A stretch of 64,000 bases of DNA from a virus (IMGVR_UViG_3300045988_121102); one strand, 5' to 3'; shown: positions 29,016 to 61,785, counted from the stretch's first letter. The notes: generated by a model not told the origin, from the letters alone. Translations and numbers: made by a program.

Positions 29016-29032
29016 TACAACCATCCTCCTTA

Positions 29033-30687: not shown

Positions 30688-32910
30688 CTATTTGCCTTTC
30701 CGCTTCATTAAGCTATTAAGTCTGCGACTCATGTTTTGAACACCGGAAATTAAAATTCCAATATAGTTGTTGTAATCGATAACGAGATGATCGTCTTTTC
30801 CAAACTGATACAATGCATTTCCATATTCTTCTGATAGAACATTCTCTGCCACGTCCTGTGCAATTAGTCCAGCACTGCTGATTCCGTTTCTCTTATACTC
30901 AAAAAAAACAGGCGTCAAAGAATTTAGAAATTCTTCTGATTCCTGTGTAGACAAACTTGTTATATTCCGTTTTAGACGCGAATCCGAGTCCTCTTTGGGG
31001 ATCGGACCCGAATATTTTTTTGCAATAACCCAGTCAATCTGAGATGGATCATCACCTTTGCAAAGAATGATGCCAGCGGTAATATTTTGAATATTAATCT
31101 GTGCGCTATCGTCTGCACCAATTTCATCATCGGTTTTTAACTGAACCACATCAAGACTACCCAGTTCAAAATTTGTACCATCTATTGTGGATGCTGATAT
31201 TTCATTTGCTGTGATAAAATTACCTTTTATCTCAATACCAGTTAATGTGGAACCAGATATATTTGTACCTGTTATTGTGCCACTGAAATTACCACGGCTA
31301 GCAATGATCCCATTACAAGTCAATGTACCATCAGCTGTCATGCTGGAATTATTCGCTTTCCAAGTAAAGCGGTTTCCGGTTATAGAAATTTGCCCTGATT
31401 CCTGAGAAATTGCTGCTGATAATCCGCCTTGACTAACTAGCAACGAAATATTCTTTGCATTCTGGCTGATTTGACTCTGCAAATTTTCATTACTTTTTGT
31501 CAAAACGGTTGTGATCTCCGATTCAGTCTGCGTTATGTTGTTAGATATCTCTCCCTCCGCATCAGTAGCTCTTTTGACTTCAGCCGATATATTCCGATTT
31601 GTTATCTCAAATTTAGATGATATATCTTTGCTCAAATCATCCATCGAAAGAACAATTTTGTCCGCTTGCTCCATCAACAGATATGACTTTCCATCAACTT
31701 CTTTGATTGAATTGTACAAATCATTGGTTGCATTTTCACTTTCATCAGCTGATGATTCTATGGAATCCATCATGGCTTGACATCCGCTCATGGTTCGTTT
31801 CATGCAAAATGTTTCTATGATGTCATCGCGAGTTATAATCCGTAGCGCATCTCCGGGTTCTATCCAGGGCATTGCTCGGCATTCCAATGTGCATGGTCTG
31901 TATGTTCTTCCATAGACATATGGGAATATTGACTGTGCTATATTAAGCAGCTCAACAACAGTTTTGCCATAAAGTAAGAAGTTCCCAGAAATTGTATAGA
32001 GATTTCCCGCATCTCCTACACTAGCGCCAATCTCTCCGTTCTGTTGAAAAATCTGTAATCCAGTATATCCTTCAATCATCTTATCTTCATATTCCAAAGA
32101 TTTGAAGGACATAATCTGCTGCACACTTCTGCCATCACTTCCCAATTCAGACGGGTAAAGTTCATTGTCATCTGGGTATAATGTTTCAGATGGATATAAT
32201 CCCGTCTGTTGAATCTGAATGTATTTAAGCAATCCATTCTTATCTATGTACCCAAAGGATACGTTGATCTGGCAGATGGCTTTTAATATTTCCATGCCAG
32301 AAATTTCAACTGGGTTGATTGTCTTTTCAACTTTTAGGGAATCAAAAAGCAGATCCGTTTGAATCTGCCTTACTCCAATATATTCACACAAAGAATCTCG
32401 CATCTCACGAATGCTTATCGGAAATGTTAAGCCATTGTACCAGCTTGATACATCCGTATTGAAAAGCCGCATTCGATTGTATGCTGTGATTTTTCTCTTT
32501 CGCCTGTCTGACTGCCTCACATATGACTCTACGGTATAATACCCTAATGGAATCTGGTATTCCCCCACTTCTTCTGTCAGAAAAAATTCTTTTCCAGTTA
32601 AATCTTCAATGACATCTGCCACCACAATTTCCAATAATGCAGAGGAGCATGAGCCAAATTCCAGATTACTGTTATCACACAATGACTCAGTGATTGTCAA
32701 ACTCTCACTTTCAATACGATCGTTTTCAATAAGCACCCATACTTCATTCTGTTCGGACGGGAACAAACTATCTTCTGGGAACAATGTCTCTGCCGGAAAT
32801 AATGAATCATACCCTTTGCTGTAAAAAGATAGCTTAAATTTTCTTGCATCAGATGGAGTAACATTGTCGCTGACTAATACTTTTTTGAATTCATCAGATA
32901 TATTAATCAT
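30688..32910 (-). CDS. tail protein with C-terminal S74 intramolecular-chaperone domain (paralog 2)
   Basis: SDSRLKRNI..AGLIAQDV.. is an S74-type C-terminus. The N-terminal ~400 aa are homologous to 32903-35095. Confidence 0.65.
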   Translation of the reverse strand: MINISDEFKKVLVSDNVTPSDARKFKLSFYSKGYDSLFPAETLFPEDSLFPSEQNEVWVLIENDRIESESLTITESLCDNSNLEFGSCSSALLEIVVADVIEDLTGKEFFLTEEVGEYQIPLGYYTVESYVRQSDRRKRKITAYNRMRLFNTDVSSWYNGLTFPISIREMRDSLCEYIGVRQIQTDLLFDSLKVEKTINPVEISGMEILKAICQINVSFGYIDKNGLLKYIQIQQTGLYPSETLYPDDNELYPSELGSDGRSVQQIMSFKSLEYEDKMIEGYTGLQIFQQNGEIGASVGDAGNLYTISGNFLLYGKTVVELLNIAQSIFPYVYGRTYRPCTLECRAMPWIEPGDALRIITRDDIIETFCMKRTMSGCQAMMDSIESSADESENATNDLYNSIKEVDGKSYLLMEQADKIVLSMDDLSKDISSKFEITNRNISAEVKRATDAEGEISNNITQTESEITTVLTKSNENLQSQISQNAKNISLLVSQGGLSAAISQESGQISITGNRFTWKANNSSMTADGTLTCNGIIASRGNFSGTITGTNISGSTLTGIEIKGNFITANEISASTIDGTNFELGSLDVVQLKTDDEIGADDSAQINIQNITAGIILCKGDDPSQIDWVIAKKYSGPIPKEDSDSRLKRNITSLSTQESEEFLNSLTPVFFEYKRNGISSAGLIAQDVAENVLSEEYGNALYQFGKDDHLVIDYNNYIGILISGVQNMSRRLNSLMKRKGK

Positions 32911-35095
32911 CGTTTCCCTCCAGTCTTTTCAATCTGCTATCCAAATACTGAAAGCAGGCAATCAAAATTCCAATAAAATGCATATATGGGATTCCATAAT
33001 AACCTGTTTTTGGATCAACATCATACAACGGCCAGTCAAGGTTATTTTCCATCAAAACTGTTTCAACCTCCTGTGCAATCAGTCCGATTGCTTCATCTCC
33101 GGACGATTTGAACTGATATTTCACTGGCCTTAACGCGTCAACCACTTTCATTGCTATTTCTGGCGGAATATCCCGTATATTCTTCTTTAAACGTCTGTCA
33201 GAATAATACGTAAACTTCGAACATTGCAAATAACTGAATTCCCCTCTGGTTGCATTAACATACGTGCATTCCTCTATGGATTTTACACTTAATACACCAA
33301 GGTTCAACTCTCCTGTGGCCGTTACTTTACTAGCTTTTATATCGGAACCAGTGATCGTGGAACCTTTAATTGTTGCACCAGATACAGTGCCACCGCTTAT
33401 CGTATTACCAGTAATCGTTGCGCCGGTAATCGTTCCACCACTAATCGTTGAGCCCGTGATAGTTCCAGAAAAAGTTCCGTTCGTAGCTTTGATATTCTGG
33501 CAAGTCAACGTGCCATCCGAAGTCATGTTGGAATATGTAGAATTCCAAGAAAAGCGATTGCCTTGGATATTAACTCCGCCACTTTCCACGGAAATTTCCG
33601 AAGAAACACTTCCCTTGCTAACTTTTAGCTTGATTGCATCCGCATTCTGTGTAATTTGTGACTGCATCTGATTTGCAGAATCGGCGACTTGTGTTTTTAA
33701 AGATTCTGCTGTCAACGTAATTTGCGATGAAAGTTTATTTTCTGACTCTGTCGCTCTTGTCACTTCTGCGGATATCTGATCCGCGGTAACTTTAAATTGT
33801 GCTTCTGTTTTCTCTCCTAAATCCGTTACTTTCGCAGAAACCTCTTCGATATTTCGCGTAATAACTGCTGTCTTACCAAGGAGCTGGATAATCTGCTTAT
33901 TGACTCCAAATACTTCTTCTCTAGTCTGACCTCCTGTTGCCTCGTATGTGTCCATCATAGCTTGACATCCGCTCATGGTTCGTTTCATGCAAAATGTTTC
34001 TATGATGTCAGTTTGAGTGACAGCTTGAAGATAATCTCCTACCTCAATCCAGGGCATCGCATAACATTCGATATTTGCCGGGCGATACGTTCTCCCAGAA
34101 ATATATGGTAATAATGTTTGGGCTATGCTTATCATTTCCGCAGCGCTTTTCCCATATACCAAAAAGTTCCCTTCGATGGTATAAACAGAATCACTTGTTC
34201 CTACGCTAGAACCTATATCTCCTTCTTCCTGTCGAATCGTCAACCCTGTGATGCCATCGATCATGTAATCTTCATACTCCAATGGCTGTTTATAGTAGTT
34301 GATATGTTCAACTGCTCGATCATCACTACCTTTTTCCGATGGATACAATTCTTCCTCTGGATAAAGAGATTCTGACGGATACAATCCAGTTTGTTGCAAC
34401 TGAATATACTTCAAGGCTCCGGTTCTATCCATATGACCAAAGCATCCATTCAACTGGCAAATTGCCTTTAAGACTTCCAACCCAGAGATTTGTTCCGGTT
34501 CAATAGTCTTTTCAATTTTTAACGAATCAAATGGCAGCGAAATCTGAATCTGACTAATTCCAATGTACTCACATAAGGAATTTCGAAATTCAAACAATGT
34601 CATTGGGAACGTCAGTTCATTGTACCATACAGCCACATCTACATCGAATAATCGCATATTGTCATACGCTGTAATCTTCCGTTTCCTGCGATCGGATTGT
34701 CTTGTGTATGATTCTACGGTATATACACCAAGAATCATTTCATATCCGCCGCATTCTACGCTCAGGGTAAAAGTCCGTCCAGTCAGATCCTCGATAACAT
34801 CTGCAACCACAATTTCCATGCTGGATGCTTCACAAGCGCCAAATTCCAATTCATCCGAATCACAAAGAGCTTCTGTGATAGTCAACGACTCACTCTCGAT
34901 CCGATTGTTTTCAATCGTTACCCAGGGAATGCCATTCTCAGCCGGAAATAGTGTATCTTCCGGAAATAACGTCTCATAAGGGTACAATGTATCAGCAGTC
35001 TCATCATAAAACGTTAGTTTAAATTTTTTTTGCGTTTCTACACTGGTATTCCCGGAACGATATAGGTCTTTGATTTTTTCTGGCATATCAAGCAT
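32903..35095 (-). CDS. tail protein with C-terminal S74 intramolecular-chaperone domain (paralog 1; Tal-like position)
   Basis: SDRRLKKNI..IGLIAQEV.., with TGxTISG beta-helix-like repeats. Confidence 0.65.
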   Translation of the reverse strand: MLDMPEKIKDLYRSGNTSVETQKKFKLTFYDETADTLYPYETLFPEDTLFPAENGIPWVTIENNRIESESLTITEALCDSDELEFGACEASSMEIVVADVIEDLTGRTFTLSVECGGYEMILGVYTVESYTRQSDRRKRKITAYDNMRLFDVDVAVWYNELTFPMTLFEFRNSLCEYIGISQIQISLPFDSLKIEKTIEPEQISGLEVLKAICQLNGCFGHMDRTGALKYIQLQQTGLYPSESLYPEEELYPSEKGSDDRAVEHINYYKQPLEYEDYMIDGITGLTIRQEEGDIGSSVGTSDSVYTIEGNFLVYGKSAAEMISIAQTLLPYISGRTYRPANIECYAMPWIEVGDYLQAVTQTDIIETFCMKRTMSGCQAMMDTYEATGGQTREEVFGVNKQIIQLLGKTAVITRNIEEVSAKVTDLGEKTEAQFKVTADQISAEVTRATESENKLSSQITLTAESLKTQVADSANQMQSQITQNADAIKLKVSKGSVSSEISVESGGVNIQGNRFSWNSTYSNMTSDGTLTCQNIKATNGTFSGTITGSTISGGTITGATITGNTISGGTVSGATIKGSTITGSDIKASKVTATGELNLGVLSVKSIEECTYVNATRGEFSYLQCSKFTYYSDRRLKKNIRDIPPEIAMKVVDALRPVKYQFKSSGDEAIGLIAQEVETVLMENNLDWPLYDVDPKTGYYGIPYMHFIGILIACFQYLDSRLKRLEGNDD

Positions 35096-37023: not shown

Positions 37024-37854
37024 TTATTTATCTGCGCGTCCAGTAATATGTACTTTTACATCGTCATAAGTTCCTGATGTTGAGTACATTTCAGCTGTAT
37101 AAGATTCTCCAGCCTGTAAACTAGCGCTTGCACCCATATAGACACGATAAAGATCTATCGGTTCTCCGTTTTTATAAAATACAGCAATCGCTTCTGGAAA
37201 ATCAATTTTAACAGAACCATTGTTCGTTGCTGCAACTATGGCTTTTTTGCTCTTCTTGATAACATTGGTTGAAATGTTCTGGAAAACAGGTTGCCAATAT
37301 TTTGTCTGCGTTACTTTTACTGTTGAATCAAACTCAGCTACATCTGGCGAATCAGAACAAATACTATACATGAAAAACGTAGTACCTGCCGGAATATCAC
37401 ATTCACTTAAGCTATCGGCGCTTACTGTCGAACCAACATGATTTTTTCCAACCTCGTTGATGGAAATATCTATAGTAAGAGCGCTATTATTGGTGATTTC
37501 GTACAGATGATATGTCGTATAATCATTTCCAAAAATCCAGTCAGAAATCATCAGATCCTTTGTGACTGAATCCGCCGAATACGTGATATGGGACCGGTTC
37601 TGAGTCTTGATTAACGCTCCATCAGCTCCAACACGCTGTCCATCCGGTGCTACTCCATTCGACAGCATATAGCCATCAGCTCCGAAGTAATAGTATTTTC
37701 CCTTGATTTCTTTCCAGGTATTCGTAGGATAGGAACCATCGTCCTCTTGATACCACCATCCCTTATCATCCTGTTTCCAGGAACCGGCAAATGCTGTTGA
37801 CGCCATGCTCAATGAAAGAGCTGCTGCTAATGCTAAAACTTTTAATTTTCTCAT
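37024..37854 (-). CDS. secreted protein with cell-wall-binding repeat
   Basis: Signal peptide MRKLKVLALAAALSLSMASTAFA followed by the repeat GWWYQEDDGSYPTNTWKEIKGKYYYFGADGYMLS. Confidence 0.65.
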   Translation of the reverse strand: MRKLKVLALAAALSLSMASTAFAGSWKQDDKGWWYQEDDGSYPTNTWKEIKGKYYYFGADGYMLSNGVAPDGQRVGADGALIKTQNRSHITYSADSVTKDLMISDWIFGNDYTTYHLYEITNNSALTIDISINEVGKNHVGSTVSADSLSECDIPAGTTFFMYSICSDSPDVAEFDSTVKVTQTKYWQPVFQNISTNVIKKSKKAIVAATNNGSVKIDFPEAIAVFYKNGEPIDLYRVYMGASASLQAGESYTAEMYSTSGTYDDVKVHITGRADK

Positions 37855-37880
37855 GCTGTACACCTCCCTACAATTTATAG

Positions 37881-44312: not shown

Positions 44313-44606
44313 CACATAATGTTATCGTAAAGGCTTTTTATCCTCTACTTCTTACAGTTTCCTGTAAGGTCGGCGTACATATTCGACCCAGTAGGTCGTC
44401 GGTCACTCTTGGGGATATTTTATTCTATAACTCTTTCCAAAATAGAAAGAGCATAGGTTCAATCCCTACGCTCTACAATGTACTATATCTTTTATGATAT
44501 AGTCTTATCTCGGTATTAACTTATTGACAATAGACATCAACTTAGCCTTCACCGATTTTAACCGATTTTATCATAACGCATTACTGCGTTAGGCGGCACA
44601 CATTCT
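44313..44606 (-). mobile_element. group I intron (~294 nt) in the tape-measure gene
   Basis: P1 pairs exon GCGGU with the internal guide GCCGC, placing a U.G pair at the 5' splice site. GNRA hairpins ACGCA-GUAA-UGCGU and CUUACAG-GAAA-CUGUAAG are present, the intron ends in G, and the exons join in frame. Confidence 0.7.
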
Positions 44607-46166
44607 ACCGCTTGTTCTGGCGAAGTCTCCTTGCGCGATAGCAGTATTAGCCATAACATATTGATAACGCAACATCGTTTTTTGTGCCTGCGTCATCGAA
44701 GATATGTTCGCGTCAAGTCCGTTTTTCAACGCATATTCTTTTAAGGTCGTTTGGGTTAAGTCTAAGCCGTACTTACGCAGCGGCTCTGTCTCTCCTGAGA
44801 ATACAGCTTGTAAACTTCTCGCAACCTCTTTCTGTGACACATTGTAGAAAGAAGCCATATCCGCTGCCAGCTTAGTCAGTTCGATGGACATATCAGACAT
44901 CTTACCTTGTGCAAATCCCATCGCCATTCCCATTGCCTGGAAACGACCAGAAATTTGTTTCGCAGTCAACTCAGACATGCCGAAGTCCTGGATAGAATGC
45001 TGAGTCAGTTCATCAACCTTGCTTGCGTAATCGCCGAATGCGTTATCTACAACGTTCTGAACCTCTGTTAGGTCTGAAGAAATATCGACCGCTTTCTTAA
45101 ACCCTTGTAATGCCCTAAGCAACATCCAATAAGTCGCATAGAATTTTCCAATCGCACCGGCCAGACCAGAGAAGGATTTCTTAGCCTTGCTAGATGCACT
45201 TGGCAATGACAACAAGCCTTTTGACAGATTTCGAGAACTGTTTCCAGCCTTATTACCTGCATTTGCCAAATTTGCCAACGCCTGTGTCATTTCAAGCACA
45301 TTTTTGCTGACTTTCGGTGCGGTTGACAATGTTGTCAGCATCTCCTTCAGTGCTTTTGCCAGACTGGTAATATTTCCACTGGCAGCTCTGGTAGCCGTTA
45401 CTGTTCCAAGCTTTGAAATTCCATTAGCAAGTTCAGTCAATCCCTGTACATCAAACCCACTAAAATCCAATCCCTTTAATTCTGAGGACAGATTTTTGAT
45501 AGGTGCAATCAGTGCTGGAATATTGGCTGCCGCTTGAGTGACTGTCTTTCTGCCAAGCGTTCCGATCGCCGTCGCGATGTTTCTGATTCCAGTATCATCA
45601 AACTGGATTCCATTCAGCATTGCCAAATTGGATGCTAATTGCTGGATCCCGGCTGACGTCTGCCCGATCTCCTGCATTCCAGCCGCGGACGAAATACCAT
45701 TGGTGGCATTTGCCCCCTGCGCTGACATTCCACTGAGCATGGAAGTGATTCGCTGAATCGTGCTTTCCATCGACGTCAGAGAAGTGATTTCATTTTTCAC
45801 AGACGCAGAAACGACGCTGCCCTCTTGCTGAAATGCTTTGGTTTTCTCTTTTACTGCACTCGTTACTTCAGAAACTGTAGCTTTGAGATTTCCAAGCTCG
45901 GAACTTATTGTATTTTTTCCACCCGCTTGACTAGACAAATCAATACCTTTCATAGTATTTTGAAGCTCTGTTGCGGATCCTGATAACTTTGTAAATGTAG
46001 ATGATAAATTCGTCAGCTTACGAATATCAATCATATTCACACTGGATGCCAGTTTCTCCAGCGCATTTGACATTCGCTCAATTGATGCGTCCGCTCCCCC
46101 TACATCACTGGCTATTTCCAATAATAAAGAATCTATAACATTATCTGCTGCCATTTCTACCTCCAT
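44607..46166 (-). CDS. tape measure protein, exon 1
   Basis: Ends ..ANTAIAQGDFARTSG. The read-through ORF adds only RMCAA* from intron sequence. Confidence 0.75.
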
Positions 46167-47724: not shown

Positions 47725-47982
47725 TTATTTTGTAAACTGTTTCTTTGTTTGATCAATCCATGTTGCCGATGCACCAGATACCATTCCGATCGCGACGGCA
47801 TTCAGAATATCAGTTGCCGGATAGTTTGGCATGACATACATTCCGACTATTCCCAATATGCCACCAATGGCAGCTACGATAACAGTAATCCACTTATTGT
47901 CAATTCCGGATGCCTTAACGCCGAGTCCGATGAAATAGCAAATCGCCACAATGGCAGCTACACTAGCAATTCCAAAATCCAT
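47725..47982 (-). CDS. holin-like membrane protein
   Basis: 85 aa with 2-3 transmembrane segments and a charged C-terminus. The start is set at MDFGIAS, which follows AAGGAGG. Confidence 0.5.
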   Translation of the reverse strand: MDFGIASVAAIVAICYFIGLGVKASGIDNKWITVIVAAIGGILGIVGMYVMPNYPATDILNAVAIGMVSGASATWIDQTKKQFTK

Positions 47983-48089
47983 TGTCCTACCTCCTTTCCG
48001 TTTAATTGCACGAAAAAAGAGCATTAACATTAATGCCCTTATTCCCTTATACTATTTTAACTTATGTTGTTGTTTTGTAAAAAGTCACA

Positions 48090-48997: not shown

Positions 48998-49394
48998 GAT
49001 TTGCTCCTATCTTTTCTATTCCGTATCTGTGAACCAATCCCTTTTCCGCTCCGATACATTTTTTTAAACGGTAATCCGGCAATACTATTGGTTCTAATGT
49101 TTCTTCATCCATTTTTAAAGTTCCATCTTCATTTAATTCTGGTTCTTTGTCTACCCATAACAGCATTCCTTCTTGTGGCTCAAATGAATCCCATCTGTTT
49201 TTCCATCGTGTTAAGTATCGATCGTAGTTAGGTACTAAACCGGCAGCTATTTCTTCTGGCGTCCCAGATGTAGAAGATACTGTCATATACCTAATCTCTG
49301 GTTTTGAAAAAGTTTTTATCGTATCTATTCCGTTCAACTTTTCAGTTACCATTGAAAAATAAATTTTCTGTTGTTCTCGATTATTACTTCTCAC
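48978..49394 (-). CDS. head-closure/head-tail adaptor-position protein
   Basis: Positional call. Confidence 0.4.
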   Translation of the reverse strand: MRSNNREQQKIYFSMVTEKLNGIDTIKTFSKPEIRYMTVSSTSGTPEEIAAGLVPNYDRYLTRWKNRWDSFEPQEGMLLWVDKEPELNEDGTLKMDEETLEPIVLPDYRLKKCIGAEKGLVHRYGIEKIGANREENQD

Positions 49395-49813
49395 TACGAA
49401 ACCATCCTTTCTATTATCGTGGGTATATAAAAGATTGCTTTTCCTCCTAGACTCTCATAAACCGATTTGAATATTAAATATCCATAATTGGCAACAATAT
49501 TGCACACCAGTTCTTCCATGTCAATTACATATTTTGGTTTGGAATATCTATGTATATCACTGATTATATCATATTCCCATAATACTGTATGAGTCATTTC
49601 ATGAATAAACACAGTAATCAATTCTCTTCCATATAAATCGTTTGAAAGGTAAATCGTATGTTCTGATGGAACAGTAACTCCAAGCGTATAACTTCCCGTT
49701 CTATCAATCAATTCTGGATTATATGGACTAACAAATTTCACTTTCCAATCATGATTATTTACCATTAAATATCTGTCCATAGCCCCTCCAATAGCAGAAA
49801 AGACCCATGCCAC
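49394..49813 (-). CDS. HExxH zinc-metallopeptidase-like protein
   Basis: VFIHEMTHTV. Confidence 0.55.
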   Translation of the reverse strand: MAWVFSAIGGAMDRYLMVNNHDWKVKFVSPYNPELIDRTGSYTLGVTVPSEHTIYLSNDLYGRELITVFIHEMTHTVLWEYDIISDIHRYSKPKYVIDMEELVCNIVANYGYLIFKSVYESLGGKAIFYIPTIIERMVS

Positions 49814-49842
49814 AAAAATGTAACACAGGTCCCTCTTATAAC

Positions 49843-50406
49843 TTACTGCATCTGTTGTACTAATTTAGTTATGTCTGCTTTCATCGTCTGGCGCAATGTA
49901 GGATCTGCATCCGACCACATTTCTTTCAGATTTCGAATTACATCATCTGTATATTCCTTTGTGCTATTATCCATCATTCGTTTTGATTCTGCATCTTTGG
50001 AATCATGATAATGTCTTCTGTACTCATCGTAACGATCATAAGACTCTCCATATCTGGAATTTTTCTTATCATCTTTTCCTTTGTATGTCAGATAATCATC
50101 CATCCACTCATCATCTTGTTTGTACAGATAGGGACGATATCCCATTCTATGGCCTCTGCCTTTTGGGGCAAATCTGCCGTTATCATAGCGATAACGGTCA
50201 TAGCCCATTCGTTCCATGAAGTCATCCGAATTTTCCTCATCCATTGCATCGATGATTCTCATATCTTTATCATATTGAGCTAAATCTTTAGCAATATCAA
50301 TCCACTGTCCAAAAACCATCAGTTCCGCAGGGGAAACATGGTCTAATCCTTTAGATTCGATTTCTCTTTTTACGCATTCTGCTATCTGTTTTGCGAATCT
50401 ATGCAT
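49843..50406 (-). CDS. highly charged Y/D/R/K-rich protein
   Basis: ..YDRYRYDNGRFAPKGRGHRMGYRPYLYKQDDEWMDDY.. Confidence 0.45.
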   Translation of the reverse strand: MHRFAKQIAECVKREIESKGLDHVSPAELMVFGQWIDIAKDLAQYDKDMRIIDAMDEENSDDFMERMGYDRYRYDNGRFAPKGRGHRMGYRPYLYKQDDEWMDDYLTYKGKDDKKNSRYGESYDRYDEYRRHYHDSKDAESKRMMDNSTKEYTDDVIRNLKEMWSDADPTLRQTMKADITKLVQQMQ

Positions 50407-50409
50407 AAA

Positions 50410-50832
50410 TTACTTTCCCCCTTTTAAACTCTGTGTAACTACTGTTTCAGTTGTTGGTGCTGTGCCATCAATCGATGCCAGCGTATTATTCGGCATACAT
50501 GACGGATTCCCTAACATCTTAAAGGTTCCTCCGGTCGCGCTCGTCTGTACTACTGTAGCATATCGAGTTCTTGTTCTAACTCCGCACGCTGTGACTTGAC
50601 GGCAACAACGATTTACCAGAGGATATTGAACTGTCCCGGCGCCAATCTGGAACACAACCGGAGCGCCGATCGTTGCTGTGGTTGGAATTGTCTGACCTAA
50701 TATAATGCAGTATTTCTGCCCATCGTTATAACTTCCTGCCGGAAGCGTAACAACCAGGTTCCCGTCCGTAAAAGTAATCGCCGTGGAAACAACCAAGTTA
50801 TCACACATGCGGCAAACATTTCTACAAGCCAT
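50410..50832 (-). CDS. Cys-rich beta-rich small protein
   Basis: N-terminal MACRNVCRMC, an internal NRCCRQVTAC and a T/V/G-rich sequence. Confidence 0.5.
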   Translation of the reverse strand: MACRNVCRMCDNLVVSTAITFTDGNLVVTLPAGSYNDGQKYCIILGQTIPTTATIGAPVVFQIGAGTVQYPLVNRCCRQVTACGVRTRTRYATVVQTSATGGTFKMLGNPSCMPNNTLASIDGTAPTTETVVTQSLKGGK

Positions 50833-50902
50833 ATTTTACCTCGCAATCTAAAAAAGAGGCGGAGATACCGCCTCTCTGATATTTGTCAACCATAAAAGGC
50901 GA

Positions 50903-51709
50903 TTAGCAACAACCGGTATTAGCTGTGCAGCAATTTCCATAGTATCCGTACAGATTGGATGCTGGGTATGCCGGAACCGGTAACGGTGCTGTTCTGCGAA
51001 GAATCTCTGCCGTATTCGCATCCATTGCCGCCTGCAATACTGCATTCTGGTTAGACTGCGATGCTGCCAGTTTAAGCGACTGGTTCTCTGCCCGAAGATC
51101 TGCAGTTTCTTTCTGACACAGATAATCAAGAATTGCTCTCGTTCCCGCATTTTGGTTGTCGATGATATCTCTTGTGTTGTTGTTCATGGTGTTCTGCAAA
51201 GCACATGTATTCTGTGCCATGTTAAAGTTGACGCCCTGAATCGCTTCGCGTGTCTCACAGCAGCAATTAGATAACTGTGCCTGAAGAGCGTTTGTATTCT
51301 GCATTCCGGCTACGGTATCTGCATTGATGGATTGCTGAATTCCGTTGAATCCTTGCAGCATTCCCACATTCAAACCGTTAAATCCACTCTGCATTGTGTT
51401 GTTTAATGCATAAGTACTGTCACAAATCCCCTGCTGAATACCGCGGATGCCGTTTTGAATGTCATTAAGGGCAAATCCCTCATTTATATCTGCTCGTGTC
51501 GCCCAGCCCTGGAAACCGGCTCCATTAGTGCCATTGGCACCATTTCCGCCCCAGCCGCCATAGCCGTTTCCCCATCCGCCAAAAATAGCAAAAATCAGGA
51601 ACAGCCAAATAAACCAGCCGCCATCTCCCCAGCCATTACAGCCATTATCTTTGGAGTTACCTGTTGCGGCAGCAATGTCCGCTAACGAGTATCCGCTTGA
51701 AGTCATCAT
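50903..51709 (-). CDS. membrane-anchored G/W/N/Q-rich protein with Cys-rich C-terminus
   Basis: Transmembrane segment GGWFIWLFLIFAIFGGWG, N/Q-rich repeats, SNCCCE, and an ending YGYYGNCCTANTGCC. The start is placed at MMTSSGY, which follows AAGGGGG. Confidence 0.5.
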   Translation of the reverse strand: MMTSSGYSLADIAAATGNSKDNGCNGWGDGGWFIWLFLIFAIFGGWGNGYGGWGGNGANGTNGAGFQGWATRADINEGFALNDIQNGIRGIQQGICDSTYALNNTMQSGFNGLNVGMLQGFNGIQQSINADTVAGMQNTNALQAQLSNCCCETREAIQGVNFNMAQNTCALQNTMNNNTRDIIDNQNAGTRAILDYLCQKETADLRAENQSLKLAASQSNQNAVLQAAMDANTAEILRRTAPLPVPAYPASNLYGYYGNCCTANTGCC

Positions 51710-51782
51710 AATTTCAAGCCCCCTTAAATATATTTGTAAATCAAGAGGAATCCTAGGCTTTCCACTCAATCTTACAGCAAAG

Positions 51783-52022
51783 TTATTTCATGCCAAATTG
51801 ATTTTTGAGCTGAGATAATGCTTTGTCCGGATCGATATGGCGCTCTTCACATAGATTTCTAGCCAATCTCTCTATTCCGGTACTATCTCCATTTTTCATC
51901 ATTTGTATAGCATTGTTGAGCACAGGATTGTTCCCGGCTTCCTTTTGTAAGATGGTATTTAATGCTTCTTGAGGATTTCCACCACTTCGCATTAATTGGA
52001 TTAACTGCATAGGATTAATCAT
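51783..52022 (-). CDS. small helical protein
   Basis: 79-aa ORF. Confidence 0.4.
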   Translation of the reverse strand: MINPMQLIQLMRSGGNPQEALNTILQKEAGNNPVLNNAIQMMKNGDSTGIERLARNLCEERHIDPDKALSQLKNQFGMK

Positions 52023-52528
52023 TTTTGACCTCCTCCCCTCTGTATGGGTTTGGACGCTTCCGTGTGCTGTTGATTATTTTTATTTACCAAATCTTTAATT
52101 CCAGATATCTCCTCGAATATATCTTGCCTTAACTGTTCAAACAACGTATTTAGCGTTTCTTCATTTATTCCAGTATTGAGTTGTTCCGATTTATTTTGAG
52201 ACTCTGGTTGCATCAATCGATATACGCAAATCTGACTTTTCCCATCTGCCTGCAACTGCTTTCTGTATATTTCAGTCCCATCAGATTTTGGATACCAGAC
52301 TGGATTCCCACTCATATCAACGTCTTTTGCCTTTACCGCATCGATTCCATCGACAATCTGCCCAGAAAGGAACTGATTCTGCTGATTCACTTGCTGTTGT
52401 ATGGGAACGTACTGCATCTGTGGTTGGTAATTATTGTTTGGTAATTGGGACAATCTTTCCTGATATGGATTGATTGGATTCTGATATGTAGGATATGCCA
52501 TATTAGGCCATGTTGGATAAGGTTGCAC
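52019..52528 (-). CDS. P/Q/N/Y-rich protein
   Basis: (M)QPYPTWPNMAYPTYQNPINPYQ... GTG start follows GGGAGG. A TATAAT box lies upstream. Confidence 0.45.
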   Translation of the reverse strand: MQPYPTWPNMAYPTYQNPINPYQERLSQLPNNNYQPQMQYVPIQQQVNQQNQFLSGQIVDGIDAVKAKDVDMSGNPVWYPKSDGTEIYRKQLQADGKSQICVYRLMQPESQNKSEQLNTGINEETLNTLFEQLRQDIFEEISGIKDLVNKNNQQHTEASKPIQRGGGQK

Positions 52529-52603
52529 CTATCTTTCCTCCCTTCTTCCTACCTCTATTATACTTAACCAGATAGGAAGAAAACAGGACAGAATATAGAC
52601 ACT

Positions 52604-52843
52604 TTATGGACATGATTTGAAAATTACTTTTCGAATTTTGTTTTTGATTTTTATGTTTATTCTATAAGCAGTTTTAGACGATATATTCATTCGTTCTGCT
52701 GACTGTTCAAGGGTAAAATTTTGAGCTCTTAATAGAAAAAGTTCGTTCTCATCGGGTGTAAAATTGCATTCACTTTCTAGCACTTCTATCTCTGATTTTG
52801 TGAAGTCACTAATATTCATTCTCTTGTTACCCATAAAATCCAT
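52604..52843 (-). CDS. small sigma-70 region-4-like HTH protein
   Basis: FTLEQSAERMNISSKTAYRINIKIKNKI. Confidence 0.4.
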   Translation of the reverse strand: MDFMGNKRMNISDFTKSEIEVLESECNFTPDENELFLLRAQNFTLEQSAERMNISSKTAYRINIKIKNKIRKVIFKSCP

Positions 52844-52860
52844 TCCTCCCTATATGGATC

Positions 52861-53175
52861 TTATCCGGGGAACGTTCCACCTTTGAGAAAATAGGCGACT
52901 ACTGCGCCTATAACGGCTCCGATAATGCCAGTAATGGCCGATTCGTATCGTTTGCTTGGCACTGACATTAAGGATTTTACATTATTATTTACTTCATCCA
53001 CAGCATCTCGAATATGCTGTAAATCATTGGATACGACATCCATACGACGTTCCAATTCTTCAATTCTGGAGTAAAACTTTTCATGCTCCTGACTGATTTT
53101 TTTCTTTAAATCCCGAAAGTCATTTTCAAGGGATTCGATTCGATGTATATTTACGCATTCTGATTCACATCCCAT
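52861..53175 (-). CDS. XhlA-like coiled-coil protein with C-terminal TM
   Basis: Coiled coil SRIEELERRMDVVSNDLQHIRDAVDEV followed by the transmembrane segment ITGIIGAVIGAVVAYFL. Confidence 0.5.
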   Translation of the reverse strand: MGCESECVNIHRIESLENDFRDLKKKISQEHEKFYSRIEELERRMDVVSNDLQHIRDAVDEVNNNVKSLMSVPSKRYESAITGIIGAVIGAVVAYFLKGGTFPG

Positions 53176-53284
53176 CGCCATACCTCTTGGGCCCTTTCTC
53201 TCCCGTAAGACTATACTTCTCCCCACCACCGCGCGAAGTATCCCTGCAACACAACGGGAGGAATTGTGTCACGCACCGTCTGTG

Positions 53285-58963: not shown

Positions 58964-61705
58964 CTAAAATGGACTTGTCATAATTCTGGTTCGTGAAACT
59001 CCACTGCCCTTATTCAAAAATACTGCTAATGCCGCCAATGAGTCCGGTGCATCATCATGCTTATTTTTACCAGTGATTGTAAAACTGTAAACTTGATTAA
59101 GAAACTTTCGATATTCTTTTGATTGACAACCTGAATCTCGAAAATAAAAGCTCCGAATAGCTTGTGCATTATCCCATATTCTTTGTTCCTTTCGTTGCGA
59201 TGTTTTTTTTCCTCCTTTTCCGGCATTGACGATCATCTGTTGTGCAAATCTGGAAATCAAATTGATTTGAACTCCACGTTCTTTCAGCATTCCATTTATA
59301 TCATCCTTGTAACCTTCGCCACCATTATTCGCCTCAAAAAAGGCATTCGACACATGATTCCTGATTAACGCATCCAAGACTTTCGGCTGTGTAATCATCT
59401 TTTCGCTGCTATCAAACACAACGTCATGAATGTAAACCGAACCATCTTCATATACATAAGCAATTGGCATGGAAAGATAGTCTGTTCCGCCCAAAGCCAC
59501 ATCACACGCAGCGACCACTTTCAGCGGTGCCACATCAGGCAACACACCATTGTAAAAATTCATATGCTCTGGGTTAAATACCGCGCCATCACGTTCAATC
59601 GGTTCCTGCTGACATTGTGCGAACCACGATGCCATATCGTCATTTTCTTCAAATTTTGCACGTTCAATTCGATAATATTTCGTACTGAACCCGACATTAT
59701 AATCATAATCAAAGTTGGATTCATCTGTTTCTGGGTCTAGCGCCGGTATCTTTAAAACTTCCCATCTGATTCCTTTTGCCTCTGGATTGTTCTCCAGAAA
59801 TCCCATACGATTCATATAGATATCATGCAGACTCCAAATGGTTCCGTTATAAAGGACCTTGCATTTCTCTTTTTTACGTTTCATAAGGTTGTTATCAAAC
59901 AACATCTGCTTTCGTGCTAAAACATCCGGACTCAAAACATCCTCAATACCTGCCAAAATATCATCCGCTACCAGCCATCCGGTCGCATCGTACAAACCGT
60001 TCAAACCAGATGTCAGACCTTTTCCAGACAATGACTTGTATTTCTTCTTGCGCTCCAAATCAACGGTATTAGCTTTAGCATCAGTGGATACGATTCTGGC
60101 ATTTGGAAAAACATCTGTATGTAGATAAATCGGATCTGTCCATATTTCCTTTACGCCATCAAGAAATGCCCCTCCAGCATCCTCTTTATATGAACAGTAA
60201 AGATTACTCAGCTCTGTATTTCGGCAGCAATGCCATGCCATTCCAAGTGTGATTATCTGCGTATTATGTGTTGGAACCATTGTTTTCCCAACCAAATACA
60301 AACCATCACTATTTGAAACCGTAATGCAGTTGCCTTGTTTTGGAATGCTTCTTGTGATTGATTTGATAGAAATCCTATGTTTCTTTGAAAATTCTTTTAG
60401 TTTCTTTCGTTCGATTGTACATGGTATTTCAATTGTTGGATTAAATCCAATGGTATATACTGCATTTCTACCAATTACACCACTGCTTGATATTTTCGGT
60501 TCTTTCTTTTTTATAGATGCTCTCCATCCAAACGTGGATATTAAAGAAACAAAGTCGTTTTTTAACGTTTCATTTGCGGTTGAAAACTGATATCTTCTTT
60601 CTTTTCTAATCAAACATCCATCCGTGTCCAGCAAGCCCGCCAAAAGTTCCAGTCGCTGCTTTACAGAAGCACATAAATATTCTTTCGGTATGTGTTTATT
60701 ACAAATTTTCGTATAATAACACATATCATAAGTTCTTAAATCGTCTACCAGTTCCCTGCCAAATACTGTTGTTATTACCCCTGTCGTTTTATGAACGTAT
60801 TGATGTTTTATTGGATATCCATACTTTACAATTTTATCGACAATAGCAGAATCCGATTGAGGCCCAGAAATGGCAGGCTTTTTATTGGTTCCATCACCCA
60901 ACCAGGCCCCTAAAACATACGGATGTACTTTTAGTTGCATTTCCGTTCCTGCCATTATCGGCTTTTGAGGAAGATAAAATCTATATCTATCATTAAATCG
61001 TTCTTTTCCTATTAAGTTTTGAGTTTCTTCTGTTTCCCAGACACCTCTTTTTTTGTCATAGACAGTCCATTCGTGTCTAAAGTGGCATTCAATCTTTGTG
61101 CCATCGGACAATTCCACTGTATGAGTTGTATGATATTTAGGATGAACGCAAATCACTGTAGTAAACTTTCCATCGCTACCAATGACTTGATCTCCTAATT
61201 TTAATTCTCCGTGAGTTTTCCATCCACTCTTTGTAAACACTGGCGTATCATCGGCTAATAGCTTACCAACACGCGCCGGCATGTGAATAAATCCCTCATC
61301 CAGCTGATCATCTTCCAGTCGTTGAAGCAGATTGACAACCTTTATCAATGTCTTGCGTCTAGGCTGATAAAAGCGTTCCTGGGGTTTTCTATCCTTTTCA
61401 ACATACAAAGCATAAGAATCCAACAGATCTGGAGCTTCAAATAAAAGCAACTGCCAGTACAAATCATCAAAATTTCCACTTCCTGTTTGTGCTGCCCTAT
61501 AAGCCGCCATCTGATGCAAATATTGACTGATTTTCAACGCACAGTCTTTAACATCCTTATGTTCAGCGAATACATAATCGCTACGCATATTCAAAATAAG
61601 CTGAAACAAATCTTCCTGGCTTTGATAATCTTTCAAACCACATTTCATAATCCGGTCCGCAATGTATTTATACCATTCAAGACTGCCCTCTATTAATTTT
61701 GACAT
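58964..61705 (-). CDS. terL: terminase large subunit (intein-containing precursor)
   Basis: The exteins rejoin to give PARVGK|TQIITLG (Walker A GKT). The nuclease half lies downstream. Confidence 0.8.
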   Translation of the reverse strand: MSKLIEGSLEWYKYIADRIMKCGLKDYQSQEDLFQLILNMRSDYVFAEHKDVKDCALKISQYLHQMAAYRAAQTGSGNFDDLYWQLLLFEAPDLLDSYALYVEKDRKPQERFYQPRRKTLIKVVNLLQRLEDDQLDEGFIHMPARVGKLLADDTPVFTKSGWKTHGELKLGDQVIGSDGKFTTVICVHPKYHTTHTVELSDGTKIECHFRHEWTVYDKKRGVWETEETQNLIGKERFNDRYRFYLPQKPIMAGTEMQLKVHPYVLGAWLGDGTNKKPAISGPQSDSAIVDKIVKYGYPIKHQYVHKTTGVITTVFGRELVDDLRTYDMCYYTKICNKHIPKEYLCASVKQRLELLAGLLDTDGCLIRKERRYQFSTANETLKNDFVSLISTFGWRASIKKKEPKISSSGVIGRNAVYTIGFNPTIEIPCTIERKKLKEFSKKHRISIKSITRSIPKQGNCITVSNSDGLYLVGKTMVPTHNTQIITLGMAWHCCRNTELSNLYCSYKEDAGGAFLDGVKEIWTDPIYLHTDVFPNARIVSTDAKANTVDLERKKKYKSLSGKGLTSGLNGLYDATGWLVADDILAGIEDVLSPDVLARKQMLFDNNLMKRKKEKCKVLYNGTIWSLHDIYMNRMGFLENNPEAKGIRWEVLKIPALDPETDESNFDYDYNVGFSTKYYRIERAKFEENDDMASWFAQCQQEPIERDGAVFNPEHMNFYNGVLPDVAPLKVVAACDVALGGTDYLSMPIAYVYEDGSVYIHDVVFDSSEKMITQPKVLDALIRNHVSNAFFEANNGGEGYKDDINGMLKERGVQINLISRFAQQMIVNAGKGGKKTSQRKEQRIWDNAQAIRSFYFRDSGCQSKEYRKFLNQVYSFTITGKNKHDDAPDSLAALAVFLNKGSGVSRTRIMTSPF
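60263..61261 (-). mobile_element. intein (333 aa) with LAGLIDADG homing endonuclease
   Basis: N-terminal LLADDTPV, block B ..CHFRHEW, LAGLIDADG motifs LGAWLGDG and LLAGLLDTDG, block F GNCITV, and a C-terminal VPTHN|T. Confidence 0.75.
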
Positions 61706-61785
61706 ATAAAAAGAACCACGCTCCCCCTTTATCAAAAAGTGAAGTCATGGCTCTCTAAATATTGGCTCTCTTGACTAACTATCCA

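What the first reader, a model, noticed from the sequence alone, without database searches (positions are those of the whole stretch)
49394..53229. 3.9-kb block of compositionally bizarre genes inserted between head-connector and head-closure genes
Where a siphovirus morphogenesis operon normally runs connector, head closure, then tail, eight unrelated genes intervene:
- an XhlA-like coiled-coil protein with a transmembrane segment
- a 79-aa sigma region-4-like HTH protein
- a P/Q/N/Y-rich protein preceded by its own TATAAT box
- a small helical protein
- a transmembrane-anchored G/W/N/Q-rich protein ending ..NCCTANTGCC
- a Cys-rich beta-type protein (MACRNVCRMC.., ..NRCCRQVTAC..)
- a hyper-charged Y/D/R protein
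- an HExxH peptidase

The low-complexity composition, the Cys-rich termini and the paired peptidase recall disulfide-cross-linked surface, coat or fibre assemblies such as spore-coat or exosporium-type proteins. That comparison is inference only. The block may be a lysogenic-conversion or virion-decoration module with no assigned function.
Basis: inference. Interest (0 to 1): 0.7.

Follow-up and report, generated by a model that had tools for sequence, protein, structure and literature searches.

The report
Portable uncharacterised phage fibre-knob gene cassette
The odd block is real: it is a lysis-associated gene plus a seven-gene cassette of unknown function that is very common in gut phages of unrelated bacteria, so it is not spore-related, and it probably builds a cysteine-knotted, membrane-anchored stalk with an exchangeable knob.

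Summary
Eight minus-strand genes do lie at 49394-53229, between a gp6-like connector gene and the head-completion genes. Five of them are among the 12 most compositionally unusual of 81 ORFs in the window.

The genes are not unrelated. g1 is an XhlA-like lysis-associated protein. g2-g8 form a syntenic cassette: HTH - g3 - g4 - g5 - terminator - g6 - g7 - peptidase.

Its core recurs in about 80 further loci. In the window's own lineage it sits at this same place. In other phages it lies after the endolysin and before the integrase, after tail genes, or between head genes.

Homologues of g5 occur in Clostridia prophages, C. perfringens and Butyrivibrio phages, crAss-like phages and virulent enterobacterial siphoviruses. 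They share a Gly/Trp-flanked hydrophobic helix, N/Q-rich helices, an invariant CCC motif and a C-terminal Cys knot.

g6 models confidently as a beta-sandwich that resembles tail-fibre tips. In sister lineages a probable BclA_C-like protein replaces it.

No family, solved structure, defence model or paper assigns a function. The spore-coat and lysogenic-conversion reading is not supported.

Best guess (0.35): a late-expressed, membrane-anchored stalk-and-knob complex that works with the lysis genes. A virion fibre (0.22) remains open.

The parts
52861..53181 (-). g1: XhlA-like coiled-coil protein with a C-terminal transmembrane helix. It is lysis-associated and often travels upstream of the cassette. 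The longest ORF begins at the GTG at 53229.
   Evidence: phrog_937 'hemolysin' E 2.5e-8 and phrog_1193 E 1.1e-7. Homologues lie next to a holin or amidase in other loci (L019, L057, L022, L081). Relatives are 103-104 aa.
52604..52843 (-). g2: 79-aa HTH protein resembling sigma-70 region 4 only. Probable dedicated regulator at the 5' end of the cassette.
   Evidence: phrog_1190 E 8.5e-8; TIGR02937 E 6e-5 and PRK06930 'positive control sigma-like factor' E 1.4e-3; Pfam Sigma70_r4_2 E 0.011, below cut-off. Lies directly upstream of g3 in at least 24 loci.
52557..52562 (-). TATAAT hexamer upstream of g3 with no good -35 element.
   Evidence: Read in the sequence. Sigma-70-type promoters are not enriched upstream of g3 across loci, so its function is unproven.
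52019..52528 (-). g3: 169-aa protein. A P/Q/N/Y-rich N-terminal stretch, a conserved roughly 55-aa central domain (K90 and G96 invariant), a helix and a basic tail.
   Evidence: phrog_21718 E 1.3e-16; alignment A4. Found in 77 loci directly upstream of g4-g5. No PDB relative.
51783..52022 (-). g4: 79-aa Met/Gln/Asn-rich helical protein.
   Evidence: Two sequence variants together occupy this slot in 71 loci. A homologue is in C. perfringens phage XP41-N3, E 2.6e-9.
50903..51709 (-). g5: 268-aa core protein. Acidic N-tail, Gly/Trp-flanked hydrophobic helix, N/Q-rich helical region, invariant CCC (C149-151) and a C-terminal Cys knot (..NCCTANTGCC).
   Evidence: phrog_16490 E 5.8e-66. At least 8000 90%-identity clusters. 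Alignment A6 across Clostridia, crAss-like and E. coli phages. Family statistics: N-tail net negative in 98-99%, CCC in 99-100%.
50853..50877 (-). Intrinsic-terminator-like hairpin plus T-run between g5 and g6.
   Evidence: 10-bp stem with 6 GC pairs. An equivalent hairpin is present in 27 of 44 distinct g5-downstream spacers, against 3 of 53 upstream of g5 and 62 of 252 other spacers.
50410..50832 (-). g6: 140-aa Cys-rich beta-sandwich 'knob' with an N-terminal Cys cluster and a P/T-rich tail.
   Evidence: 3300 homologues with no Pfam domain; 351 50%-identity clusters. AlphaFold2 pLDDT 89.7. Foldseek matches the distal domains of phage tail fibres at TM 0.44-0.49. At least 2 Cys in the first 12 residues in 92% of 212 members.
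49843..50406 (-). g7: 187-aa hyper-charged protein. Two helical ends flank an R/G/Y/D/M-rich low-complexity centre.
   Evidence: Alignment A5. Follows g6 in 37 loci; in 27 others the slot holds a DUF7841 protein with a similar charged region. No homology to DUF7841 by hhalign.
49394..49813 (-). g8: small HExxH metallopeptidase-like protein.
   Evidence: H71, E72, H75, E100 and E101 invariant (A8); phrog_1233 E 1.7e-7 and phrog_13742 'peptidase' E 2.7e-5; SprT-like E 0.003, below cut-off. Follows g7 in 17 loci.

Best explanation
The block is a composite of two things. The first is an XhlA-like lysis-associated membrane protein (g1). The second is a portable, phage-restricted cassette (g2-g8).

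Shown by the data:
- The order g3 - g4 - g5 - terminator - g6 - (g7 or a DUF7841 protein) - terminator is conserved.
- The cassette is co-directional with late genes.
- It usually lies just downstream of XhlA, holin or endolysin genes.
- It occurs in phages of Firmicutes, Bacteroidota and Enterobacteria.

Inferred mechanism:
- g5 is the abundant subunit, because transcription is attenuated after it.
- Its short acidic N-tail and Gly/Trp-flanked hydrophobic helix anchor it in the host cytoplasmic membrane.
- Its N/Q-rich helices form an oligomeric, probably trimeric, stalk locked by the invariant CCC motif and the C-terminal Cys knot, through disulfides or bound metal.
- g6 is a minor subunit. 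It is a beta-sandwich knob whose N-terminal Cys cluster docks on the Cys tail of g5.
- The knob is exchangeable: a probable BclA_C-like knob sits on a 67%-identical stalk in a sister lineage. That pattern suggests the knob sets a binding specificity.
- g3, g4 and g7 are low-complexity assembly or partner proteins. g8 (or, in other lineages, a Cys-peptidase-like protein) processes a component. g2 regulates the unit.

Proposed role: the complex acts late in infection at the cell envelope together with the lysis proteins. It might mask or engage envelope structures, exclude superinfecting phage, or condition lysis and release. The exact target is unknown.
For: - Synteny and mobility.
- Linkage to lysis genes whatever the insertion site. 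XhlA precedes the cassette in the window, in L003 (between head genes) and in many post-lysin loci. In crAss-like cr53_1 the order is holin, LysB-like protein, DUF7841 protein, g5 homologue.
- Cross-phylum homology of two components: g5 (phmmer E 5.8e-19 to crAss gp66, 3.7e-9 to E. coli phage egaa gp28, 2.6e-16 to the C. perfringens phage) and DUF7841 (E 1.9e-42 in crAss, 5.6e-28 in Clostridia loci).
- g5 architecture and invariant Cys.
- Conserved internal and terminal terminators.
- g6 fold.
- Knob swapping.
- No signal peptide is visible on g3, g4, g6 or g7 (sequence).
- Phage-restricted distribution.
Against: - No experiment and no homologue of known function exists. Every functional step is inference.
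- The hydrophobic core is only marginal in the enterobacterial homologues (mean Kyte-Doolittle 1.56 against 2.4).
- Membrane orientation is undetermined: the N-tail is acidic but the C-side is not basic.
- Known exclusion or lysis-control functions are usually single genes, not five-gene cassettes.
- In the window lineage, Dulem virus 35, crAss-like phages and T1-like phages the cassette sits among or beside virion genes. The g6 fold resembles virion fibre tips. Both fit a virion role equally well.
Confidence: 0.35

Rival explanations
1. Virion-associated accessory fibre. g5 would be a Cys-knotted coiled-coil stalk and g6 (or a BclA_C-like protein) its distal knob, attached to the neck, head or tail as a whisker, decoration or side fibre that binds glycans or host surfaces. 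Alternatively g5 would be an ejected membrane-active protein.
For: - The g6 model matches the distal domains of tail fibres and collagen-like fibres (BFVD TM 0.44-0.49; PDB 9b45 baseplate/tail fibre, probability 0.96).
- Position between the connector and head-completion genes in the window lineage, between head genes in Dulem virus 35, directly after the lateral tail-fibre gene in T1-like phages, and among tail and virion genes in crAss-like cr53_1.
- Restricted to phages, including virulent ones.
- A terminator-set major/minor stoichiometry, and knob swapping as seen in receptor-binding proteins.
Against: - In most temperate phages the cassette lies after the endolysin and before the integrase, outside the structural module.
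- It travels with XhlA/holin-type genes.
- A conserved hydrophobic helix is unusual for an external fibre.
- The knob is not paralogous to the phages' own fibres.
- One IMG/VR relative has g6-g7 deleted.
- No virion proteome was found that lists these proteins.
Confidence: 0.22
2. One reading: a lysogenic-conversion module that makes disulfide-cross-linked spore-coat or exosporium-type surface proteins on the host.
For: - Cys-rich, Gly/Tyr-rich and hyper-charged low-complexity proteins without signal peptides.
- A sub-threshold BclA_C hit in the alternative knob (E 4.4e-7, 30.3 bits against a cut-off of 38).
- Many hosts are spore-forming Clostridia.
- The usual position between lysin and integrase.
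Against: - g5 and DUF7841 homologues occur in crAss-like phages of Bacteroidota, and g5 in virulent enterobacterial siphoviruses.
- No CotY/CotZ, BclA, collagen-repeat or other spore family hit for any window protein.
- No chromosomal, non-prophage copies were seen.
Confidence: 0.03
3. A killing or competition factor released at lysis. g5 would be a bacteriocin-like precursor: an N-terminal leader resembling a double-glycine leader, a Gly-rich membrane-inserting segment, a partner knob acting as a receptor-binding module, and a cognate peptidase.
For: - 37 of 100 distinct g5 N-termini carry (Y/L)S(L/A)xD(I/V)AAxTG(N/S), which resembles LSxxELxxIxGG.
- A recurrent peptidase partner: g8, or a 125-aa protein that looks like a Cys peptidase.
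- A Gly/Trp-rich hydrophobic segment and Cys pairs, as in class II bacteriocins and microcins (my own knowledge).
Against: - The motif is absent or degenerate in most subfamilies.
- The protein is far larger than such bacteriocins.
- No immunity gene or exporter is identifiable.
- The Cys-peptidase assignment has no family support.
- No PADLOC, NCBIfam or Pfam bacteriocin hit.
Confidence: 0.06
4. Not a functional unit: a chance accumulation of unrelated small morons and ORFans in a permissive intergenic site.
For: No known domains. The low-complexity composition could suggest spurious or fast-evolving ORFs.
Against: - The same order is kept in about 80 loci from different phage lineages and at different insertion sites.
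- There are thousands of homologues with conserved motifs.
- The g6 fold is confident.
- Terminator placement is conserved.
Confidence: 0.02

Closest known systems
PBSX-type lysis cassette (XhlA - XhlB holin - XlyA amidase) of Bacillus subtilis
   Same: g1 matches the XhlA-type 'hemolysin' PHROGs and has the coiled-coil plus C-terminal TM layout. In other loci it lies next to a holin and an amidase, with the cassette following.
   Different: In the window the holin (47725-48030) and the amidase (23410-24258) lie elsewhere. g2-g8 have no counterpart in PBSX.
Two-component spanins (Rz/Rz1) and class I viral fusion proteins
   Same: Like an i-spanin, g5 has an N-terminal hydrophobic helix followed by a long helical domain with conserved Cys, and it is encoded next to lysis genes. 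Its crAss-like homologue is annotated 'spike protein/glycoprotein'.
   Different: Most hosts here are monoderm Clostridia. No lipoprotein partner is present. The partners lack signal peptides. There is no sequence or profile similarity to spanins.
Trimeric fibre-plus-knob proteins (phage tail-fibre tips, T4 fibritin, BclA/C1q-type heads)
   Same: The g6 beta-sandwich matches fibre distal domains at fold level. In sister lineages the slot holds a BclA_C-like protein. Knob exchange occurs on a conserved stalk.
   Different: Stalk and knob are separate polypeptides. TM-scores are only about 0.45-0.5 and there is no sequence homology. There are no collagen repeats. The stalk carries a hydrophobic membrane-type segment. 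There is no similarity to the phage's own fibres.
Cys-rich spore-coat/exosporium proteins (CotY/ExsY, CdeC, BclA)
   Same: Cys-rich proteins without signal peptides, low-complexity partners, and Clostridia hosts.
   Different: No family hit. The cassette occurs in phages of non-sporulating Gram-negative hosts and in virulent phages.
Phage 'morons' (autonomous promoter-gene-terminator insertions in late operons)
   Same: An insertion at variable sites in late regions, with terminator-like hairpins after g5 and after g7/DUF7841.
   Different: It has seven genes rather than one. No conserved sigma-70 promoter is detectable. It is present in virulent phages, so it is not a lysogen-expressed fitness gene in any obvious way.

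Membership tests
XhlA family (g1) | Sequence match to XhlA-type profiles; a coiled coil followed by a C-terminal TM helix; encoded with a holin and an endolysin. | tested here: met
   phrog_937 E 2.5e-8 and phrog_1193 E 1.1e-7. The TM helix ITGIIGAVIGAVVAYFL is at the C-terminus. Adjacent to a holin or amidase in L019, L057 and L022. Pfam XhlA itself was not among the 25 of 44 Pfam hits shown. In the window the holin and amidase are not adjacent to g1.
Sigma-70 family sigma factor (g2) | Regions 2 and 4 both present. | tested here: not met
   Only 79 aa. The matches cover region 4 only (TIGR02937 positions 117-163 of 165; phrog_1190 positions 93-159 of 167) and fall below the curated cut-offs. 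It is a region-4-like HTH protein, not a sigma factor.
BclA / exosporium nap proteins (g6 and the block) | A collagen-like GXX repeat region plus a BclA_C (TNF/C1q-like) C-terminal domain. | tested here: not met
   No Pfam hit for g6 at E <= 0.1, and there are no GXX repeats. BclA_C is matched only by the alternative knob of Dulem virus 35, below threshold (30.3 against 38 bits). It is not matched by the L160 or Ceridwen knobs. hhalign of g6 against that knob is negative.
CotY/CotZ/ExsY Cys-rich spore-coat proteins | Match to the Spore_coat_CotZ-type profile; restriction to spore-formers. | tested here: not met
   No such hit in Pfam or NCBIfam. Cassette components are found in crAss-like and enterobacterial phages.
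Spanins (i-spanin / o-spanin) | An N-terminal TM plus a periplasmic coiled coil, paired with an outer-membrane lipoprotein (lipobox), in a diderm host. | tested here: not met
   g5 has the first feature by sequence inspection. No lipobox-bearing partner is present among g1-g8. Hosts are mostly monoderm Clostridia. No PHROG spanin hit.
Phage tail-fibre distal (receptor-binding) domains | Fold match to a fibre-tip domain, and covalent or genetic linkage to a fibre shaft in the tail module. | tested here: inconclusive
   Fold similarity TM 0.44-0.49, best PDB E-value 0.11. No sequence similarity to the phages' own tail proteins. Encoded outside the tail module in most phages.
Zn metallopeptidase, HExxH type (g8) | An HExxH motif plus a downstream third ligand, conserved across homologues. 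| tested here: met
   H71, E72, H75, E100 and E101 are invariant in 10 sequences. Assignment to SprT-like/DUF6782 is below the cut-offs. Catalysis is untested.
Double-glycine-leader bacteriocin precursors (g5) | An LSxxELxxIxGG leader, a C39 peptidase/ABC exporter and an immunity gene. | tested here: inconclusive
   A leader-like motif is present in 37 of 100 distinct N-termini. No exporter or immunity gene was recognised. The candidate Cys peptidase has no family hit.
Known anti-phage defence systems | Match to PADLOC models. | tested here: not met
   g2-g8, a DUF7841 protein and egaa gp28 have no hit. g1 has only coiled-coil noise.
Moron (autonomous transcription unit) | Its own promoter and its own terminator. 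| tested here: inconclusive
   Terminator-like hairpins are enriched after g5 (61%) and after g7/DUF7841 (85%), against 25% background. Promoter-like sites are not enriched upstream of g3.

The most novel reading that the evidence does not exclude
The cassette encodes a previously unrecognised, cross-phylum class of phage apparatus. It would be a membrane-anchored, Cys-knotted stalk with an exchangeable binding knob and low-complexity (Q/N/P/Y-rich and R/G/Y/D-rich) partners, made at the time of lysis.

Because its cross-links depend on conserved cysteines, it could be a redox-switchable structure. It would be cross-linked in air outside the gut and reduced in the anoxic colon. Its job would be to tether, shield or release progeny, or to mask receptors on debris. 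That would be a transmission device specific to gut phages rather than a virion part or a host-conversion gene.
Probability: 0.15. Interest if true: 0.85.

Novelty: categorically new. Interest (0 to 1): 0.62.

Why it matters
There are more than 600 IMG/VR loci. This makes the cassette one of the commonest unannotated gene sets in gut phages. It spans phages of Firmicutes, Bacteroidota (crAss-like) and Enterobacteria.

A module this widespread, phage-restricted and tied to the lysis region probably serves a general step of the phage life cycle that current models do not contain.

It is also directly testable. Homologues sit in culturable, genetically tractable phages: E. coli T1-like phages such as egaa and the BASEL isolates, C. 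perfringens phage XP41-N3 and Butyrivibrio phage Ceridwen.

At the least, the result removes a tempting mis-annotation (spore or exosporium conversion). It also links PHROGs 16490, 9288 and 21718 and Pfam DUF7841 into one unit.

Tried and rejected
- **Family libraries:** Pfam, PHROGs, NCBIfam and PADLOC scans of all eight proteins gave only the XhlA-like, sigma-r4-like and weak peptidase hits. Everything else was 'unknown function'.
- **PDB sequence and profile searches** for g5, g6, g3, g7 and the alternative knob found nothing.
- **First AlphaFold2 run of g6** on a shallow alignment failed (pLDDT 48). The second run, with 67 diverse sequences, succeeded.
- **hhalign** of g6 against the BclA_C-like knob, g6 against DUF7841 proteins, g7 against DUF7841 proteins, and g3 against crAss gp67 was negative in every case.
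- **'The knob mimics the phage's own receptor-binding protein':** no paralogy in the window, Ceridwen or Dulem virus 35.
- **Apparent fusion proteins** containing g6 (P0276, P0259, P0352, P0374 and others) look like assembly chimeras, not real fusions.
- **A conserved sigma-70 promoter upstream of g3:** not enriched.
- **Rfam scan of the block:** nothing.
- **Megablast of the region against GenBank phages:** no match.
- **Literature searches** on BclA and prophages, sporulation genes in gut phages, Hanrivervirus proteomics, crAss 'spike protein', the C. perfringens phage names, 9NA-like phages and DUF7841 found no statement about these proteins.

Full report
**1. Observation**

All genes in this part of the window are on the minus strand. 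Reading 5' to 3' on that strand, the order is:
- portal (58440-56875);
- a Mu-F/SPP1 gp7-like protein;
- scaffold;
- a 138-aa protein;
- major capsid protein (54899-53829);
- a 56-aa ORF;
- a gp6-like head-tail connector (53629-53285; PF05135 E 8.6e-7, phrog_132).

After them come three conserved head-completion-position genes (49394-48978, 48997-48479, 48479-48090), a holin (48030-47725; phrog_1129 E 1.4e-17), the major tail protein and the tape-measure protein.

The window is a temperate phage or prophage. It has an integrase at 26190-27212, an amidase at 23410-24258, anti-repressors and a repressor-like HTH.

- g1 hits XhlA-type 'hemolysin' PHROGs.
- g2 hits sigma region-4 profiles only.
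- g8 has an HExxH whose H, E, H and a downstream EE are invariant in homologues.

Compositionally, g3, g4, g6, g5 and g7 rank 2nd, 4th, 6th, 7th and 12th of 81 ORFs in the window. Refined starts are g1 at 53181 and g5 at 51709.

**2. The genes form a conserved, portable cassette**

Searching with g6 and g5 returned 3300 and at least 8000 (capped) 90%-identity clusters. None has a name or a Pfam domain. A full HMMER scan found 351 50%-identity clusters for g6.

I fetched 74 loci from species-representative genomes, loci from metagenome contigs and annotated phage records. I then mapped the window proteins onto them and clustered all ORFs. The recurrent order is:

(TM protein c12) - g2 - (125-aa Cys-peptidase-like protein c8) - g3 - g4 - g5 - g6 - (g7 or a DUF7841 protein) - (g8 or c11).

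Counts by number of loci:

| Component | Loci |
|---|---|
| g5 | 81 |
| g3 | 77 |
| g4 (two variants) | 71 |
| g6 | at least 67 |
| g7 | 37 |
| DUF7841 protein (PF25223, E 5.6e-28) | 27 |
| g2 | 24 |
| XhlA | 24 |
| c8 | 22 |
| g8 | 17 |

In the window's own lineage the whole eight-gene block sits at exactly this place. This lineage comprises 45-85-kb contigs, including Blautia MAGs L047 and L060, and most of the 80 best IMG/VR loci.

In other lineages the same cassette lies elsewhere:
- after the endolysin and before the integrase or serine recombinase (for example Dulem virus 33, L057, L068);
- after tail genes and before replication genes (L007);
- after holin and lysin in Bajarodcaudo virus 5 and Butyrivibrio phage Ceridwen;
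- between the Mu-F-like gene and the capsid gene in Dulem virus 35.

It is always co-directional with the late genes.

Named hosts are Oscillospiraceae, Lachnospiraceae, Anaerotruncus colihominis DSM 17241, Flintibacter, Acutalibacter and related taxa.

**3. The cassette crosses phyla and lifestyles**

g5 homologues were found by tblastn and phmmer in:
- six C. perfringens phages, where XP41-N3 carries g3, g4, g5 and g6;
- Butyrivibrio phage Ceridwen;
- crAss-like Suoliviridae, where they are annotated 'spike protein/glycoprotein';
- virulent enterobacterial siphoviruses: T1-like egaa, grams, pSf-1 and BASEL phages, Salmonella phages Sasha and Solent, Yersinia P400, Aeromonas SD04 and Hafnia yong3.

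In crAss-like cr53_1 (TAG read as Gln) the gene order is: holin, LysB/FtsL-like protein, gp67, gp66, gp65, gp64.
- gp67 is DUF7841 (E 1.9e-42).
- gp66 belongs to the g5 family (E 5.8e-19).
- gp65 gives a weak hit to the g6 profile (p 3.5e-5).

Two independent families are therefore linked in both Bacteroidota and Clostridia phages.

In T1-like egaa the g5 homologue (gp28) directly follows the lateral tail-fibre gene.

The cassette is essentially absent from 72,556 plasmids and from 5,426 E. coli genomes. It matches no PADLOC defence model.

**4. Anatomy of the proteins**

*g5 (alignment A6; statistics):*
- a short N-tail that is net negative in 98-99% of members;
- a 12-14-residue hydrophobic core flanked by Gly/Trp/Phe-rich stretches (mean Kyte-Doolittle 2.4 in the gut-phage homologues of the window protein, 1.56 in the enterobacterial ones);
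- a long N/Q-rich region;
- an invariant CCC (usually CCCET);
- a conserved L-x-x-SQ-x-x-Q and P-x-P-V-P-A-Y stretch;
- a C-terminal Gly/Tyr/Cys knot (NCCTANTGCC here; GCGCGC or GCCG elsewhere).

*g6:* with a 67-sequence alignment, AlphaFold2 gave pLDDT 89.7 and an eight-strand beta-sandwich. Beyond family members, Foldseek finds the distal domains of tail fibres, collagen-like fibres and a T7-type fibre (BFVD TM 0.44-0.49). The best PDB match is a chain of the Pa193 baseplate/tail-fibre complex (E 0.11, probability 0.96). It also matches a crAss-like protein annotated as DUF7841-containing (TM 0.53). Of 212 members, 92% have at least 2 Cys in their first 12 residues.

*The knob slot is exchangeable.* In a lineage whose g5 is 67% identical to the window's, and in Ceridwen and Dulem virus 35, the slot holds an unrelated 136-151-aa protein instead. 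One member of that family hits BclA_C below threshold (E 4.4e-7).

*g3:* a P/Q/N/Y-rich head, a conserved roughly 55-residue domain, a helix and a basic tail.

*g7 and the DUF7841 proteins:* they share an R/G/Y/D/M-rich disordered stretch but are not homologous.

*Signal peptides:* none of g3, g4, g6 or g7 has one (sequence).

**5. Regulation**

A GC-rich hairpin plus T-run lies between g5 and g6 in the window (50877-50853). Equivalent hairpins, with different sequences, occur at these rates:

| Spacer | Hairpins | Rate |
|---|---|---|
| after g5 | 27 of 44 distinct spacers | 61% |
| after g7/DUF7841 | 17 of 20 | 85% |
| before g5 | 3 of 53 | 6% |
| other spacers | 62 of 252 | 25% |

This argues for a unit [g3 g4 g5] T [g6 g7] T, in which g5 is made in excess over the knob.

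Sigma-70-type promoters are not enriched upstream of g3. The region-4-like g2 could be the regulator; that is inference.

**6. Interpretation**

The spore-coat/exosporium and lysogenic-conversion reading fails on distribution and on family tests.

Two readings remain.

(a) *An envelope complex of the infected cell, coupled to lysis.* I favour this one, for four reasons:
- The cassette travels with XhlA, holin or LysB-like genes whatever its insertion site.
- In most temperate phages it lies outside the structural module.
- g5 keeps a membrane-type helix.
- A natural deletion of g6-g7 exists.

(b) *A virion accessory fibre.* This is supported by:
- the g6 fold;
- knob swapping;
- phage restriction;
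- placement among or beside virion genes in the window lineage, Dulem virus 35, T1-like phages and crAss-like phages.

The stalk-and-knob architecture, the Cys docking and the major/minor stoichiometry are common to both readings. All of them are inferences from sequence, one model and operon structure. None is demonstrated.

A bacteriocin-like reading rests only on a leader-like N-terminal motif in 37 of 100 distinct N-termini and on the peptidase partners.

**7. Novelty**

Apart from XhlA for g1, a sigma-like HTH for g2 and weak peptidase matches for g8, the only labels attached are 'unknown function' (phrog_16490, phrog_9288, phrog_21718, DUF7841). No solved structure and no paper in the searchable library addresses these proteins (and the literature calls).

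I therefore rate the cassette as lying outside every known kind of system, while stressing that its function is unknown.

Its abundance, its cross-phylum spread and the availability of tractable host-phage pairs make it a worthwhile target.

Noticed in passing
window 44351-44616 (minus strand), between ORFs 46166-44589 and 44315-40761: A group I intron-like RNA (RF00028, 40.4 bits, E 8.3e-9, whole model matched, below the gathering score of 50). It fills the roughly 270-nt gap that splits the tape-measure gene into two ORFs. Relatives have either an uninterrupted tape-measure gene (L084) or a GIY-YIG endonuclease gene at that place (L087).
   Followed up: partly
window 58964-61735 (minus strand): The 923-aa ORF upstream of the portal is about 350 aa longer than the 564-578-aa terminase-like protein of relatives. 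It carries a LAGLIDADG_3 homing-endonuclease domain at residues 360-417 (E 1.9e-6). It is probably an intein-containing large terminase.
   Followed up: partly
window 47725-48030, 52861-53181, 23410-24258, 37024-37863: The lysis genes are scattered. The holin sits between the head-completion genes and the major tail gene. The XhlA-like gene sits after the connector. An amidase lies near the integrase, and a second endolysin-like gene lies 13 kb away. The same holin position is kept in relatives.
   Followed up: partly
L094 7001-8002 (IMG/VR UViG_3300045988_071086): In one close relative the g5 ORF runs straight into the C-terminal half of g8 (..NLYG|ELLNRVFIHELGHC..). g6, g7 and the Cys knot of g5 are deleted, and an unrelated 608-aa gene follows. 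This is either a natural deletion mutant or an assembly artefact.
   Followed up: no
L087/L088 10878-11717; L089 11078-12222: Mobile elements target the g5-g6 spacer. In two relatives a 279-aa gene sits there; it clusters with Cys-rich proteins that look like HNH/AP2-type homing endonucleases (no family hit). In a third relative an IS (rve transposase) has inserted at that place.
   Followed up: no
g5 N-terminus, window 51709-51640, and homologues: Many g5 proteins begin with (Y/L)S(L/A)xD(I/V)AAxTG(N/S). This resembles a double-glycine bacteriocin leader (LSxxELxxIxGG). It is present in 37 of 100 distinct N-termini.
   Followed up: partly
L004 12554-13705: A relative of the window phage carries a reverse transcriptase (RVT_1) next to a DUF6273 protein a few kb downstream of the cassette. 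This is a likely diversity-generating retroelement. crAss-like cr53_1 also has a reverse transcriptase just upstream of its holin and cassette.
   Followed up: no
window 30688-35095 and 28362-29707: Two adjacent paralogous tail-fibre-like genes of 730-740 aa (phrog_18190). Downstream lie two adjacent 224-aa ORFs. One (28362-29036) matches collagen-like tail-fibre families; the other (29033-29707) has no PHROG or Pfam hit.
   Followed up: no
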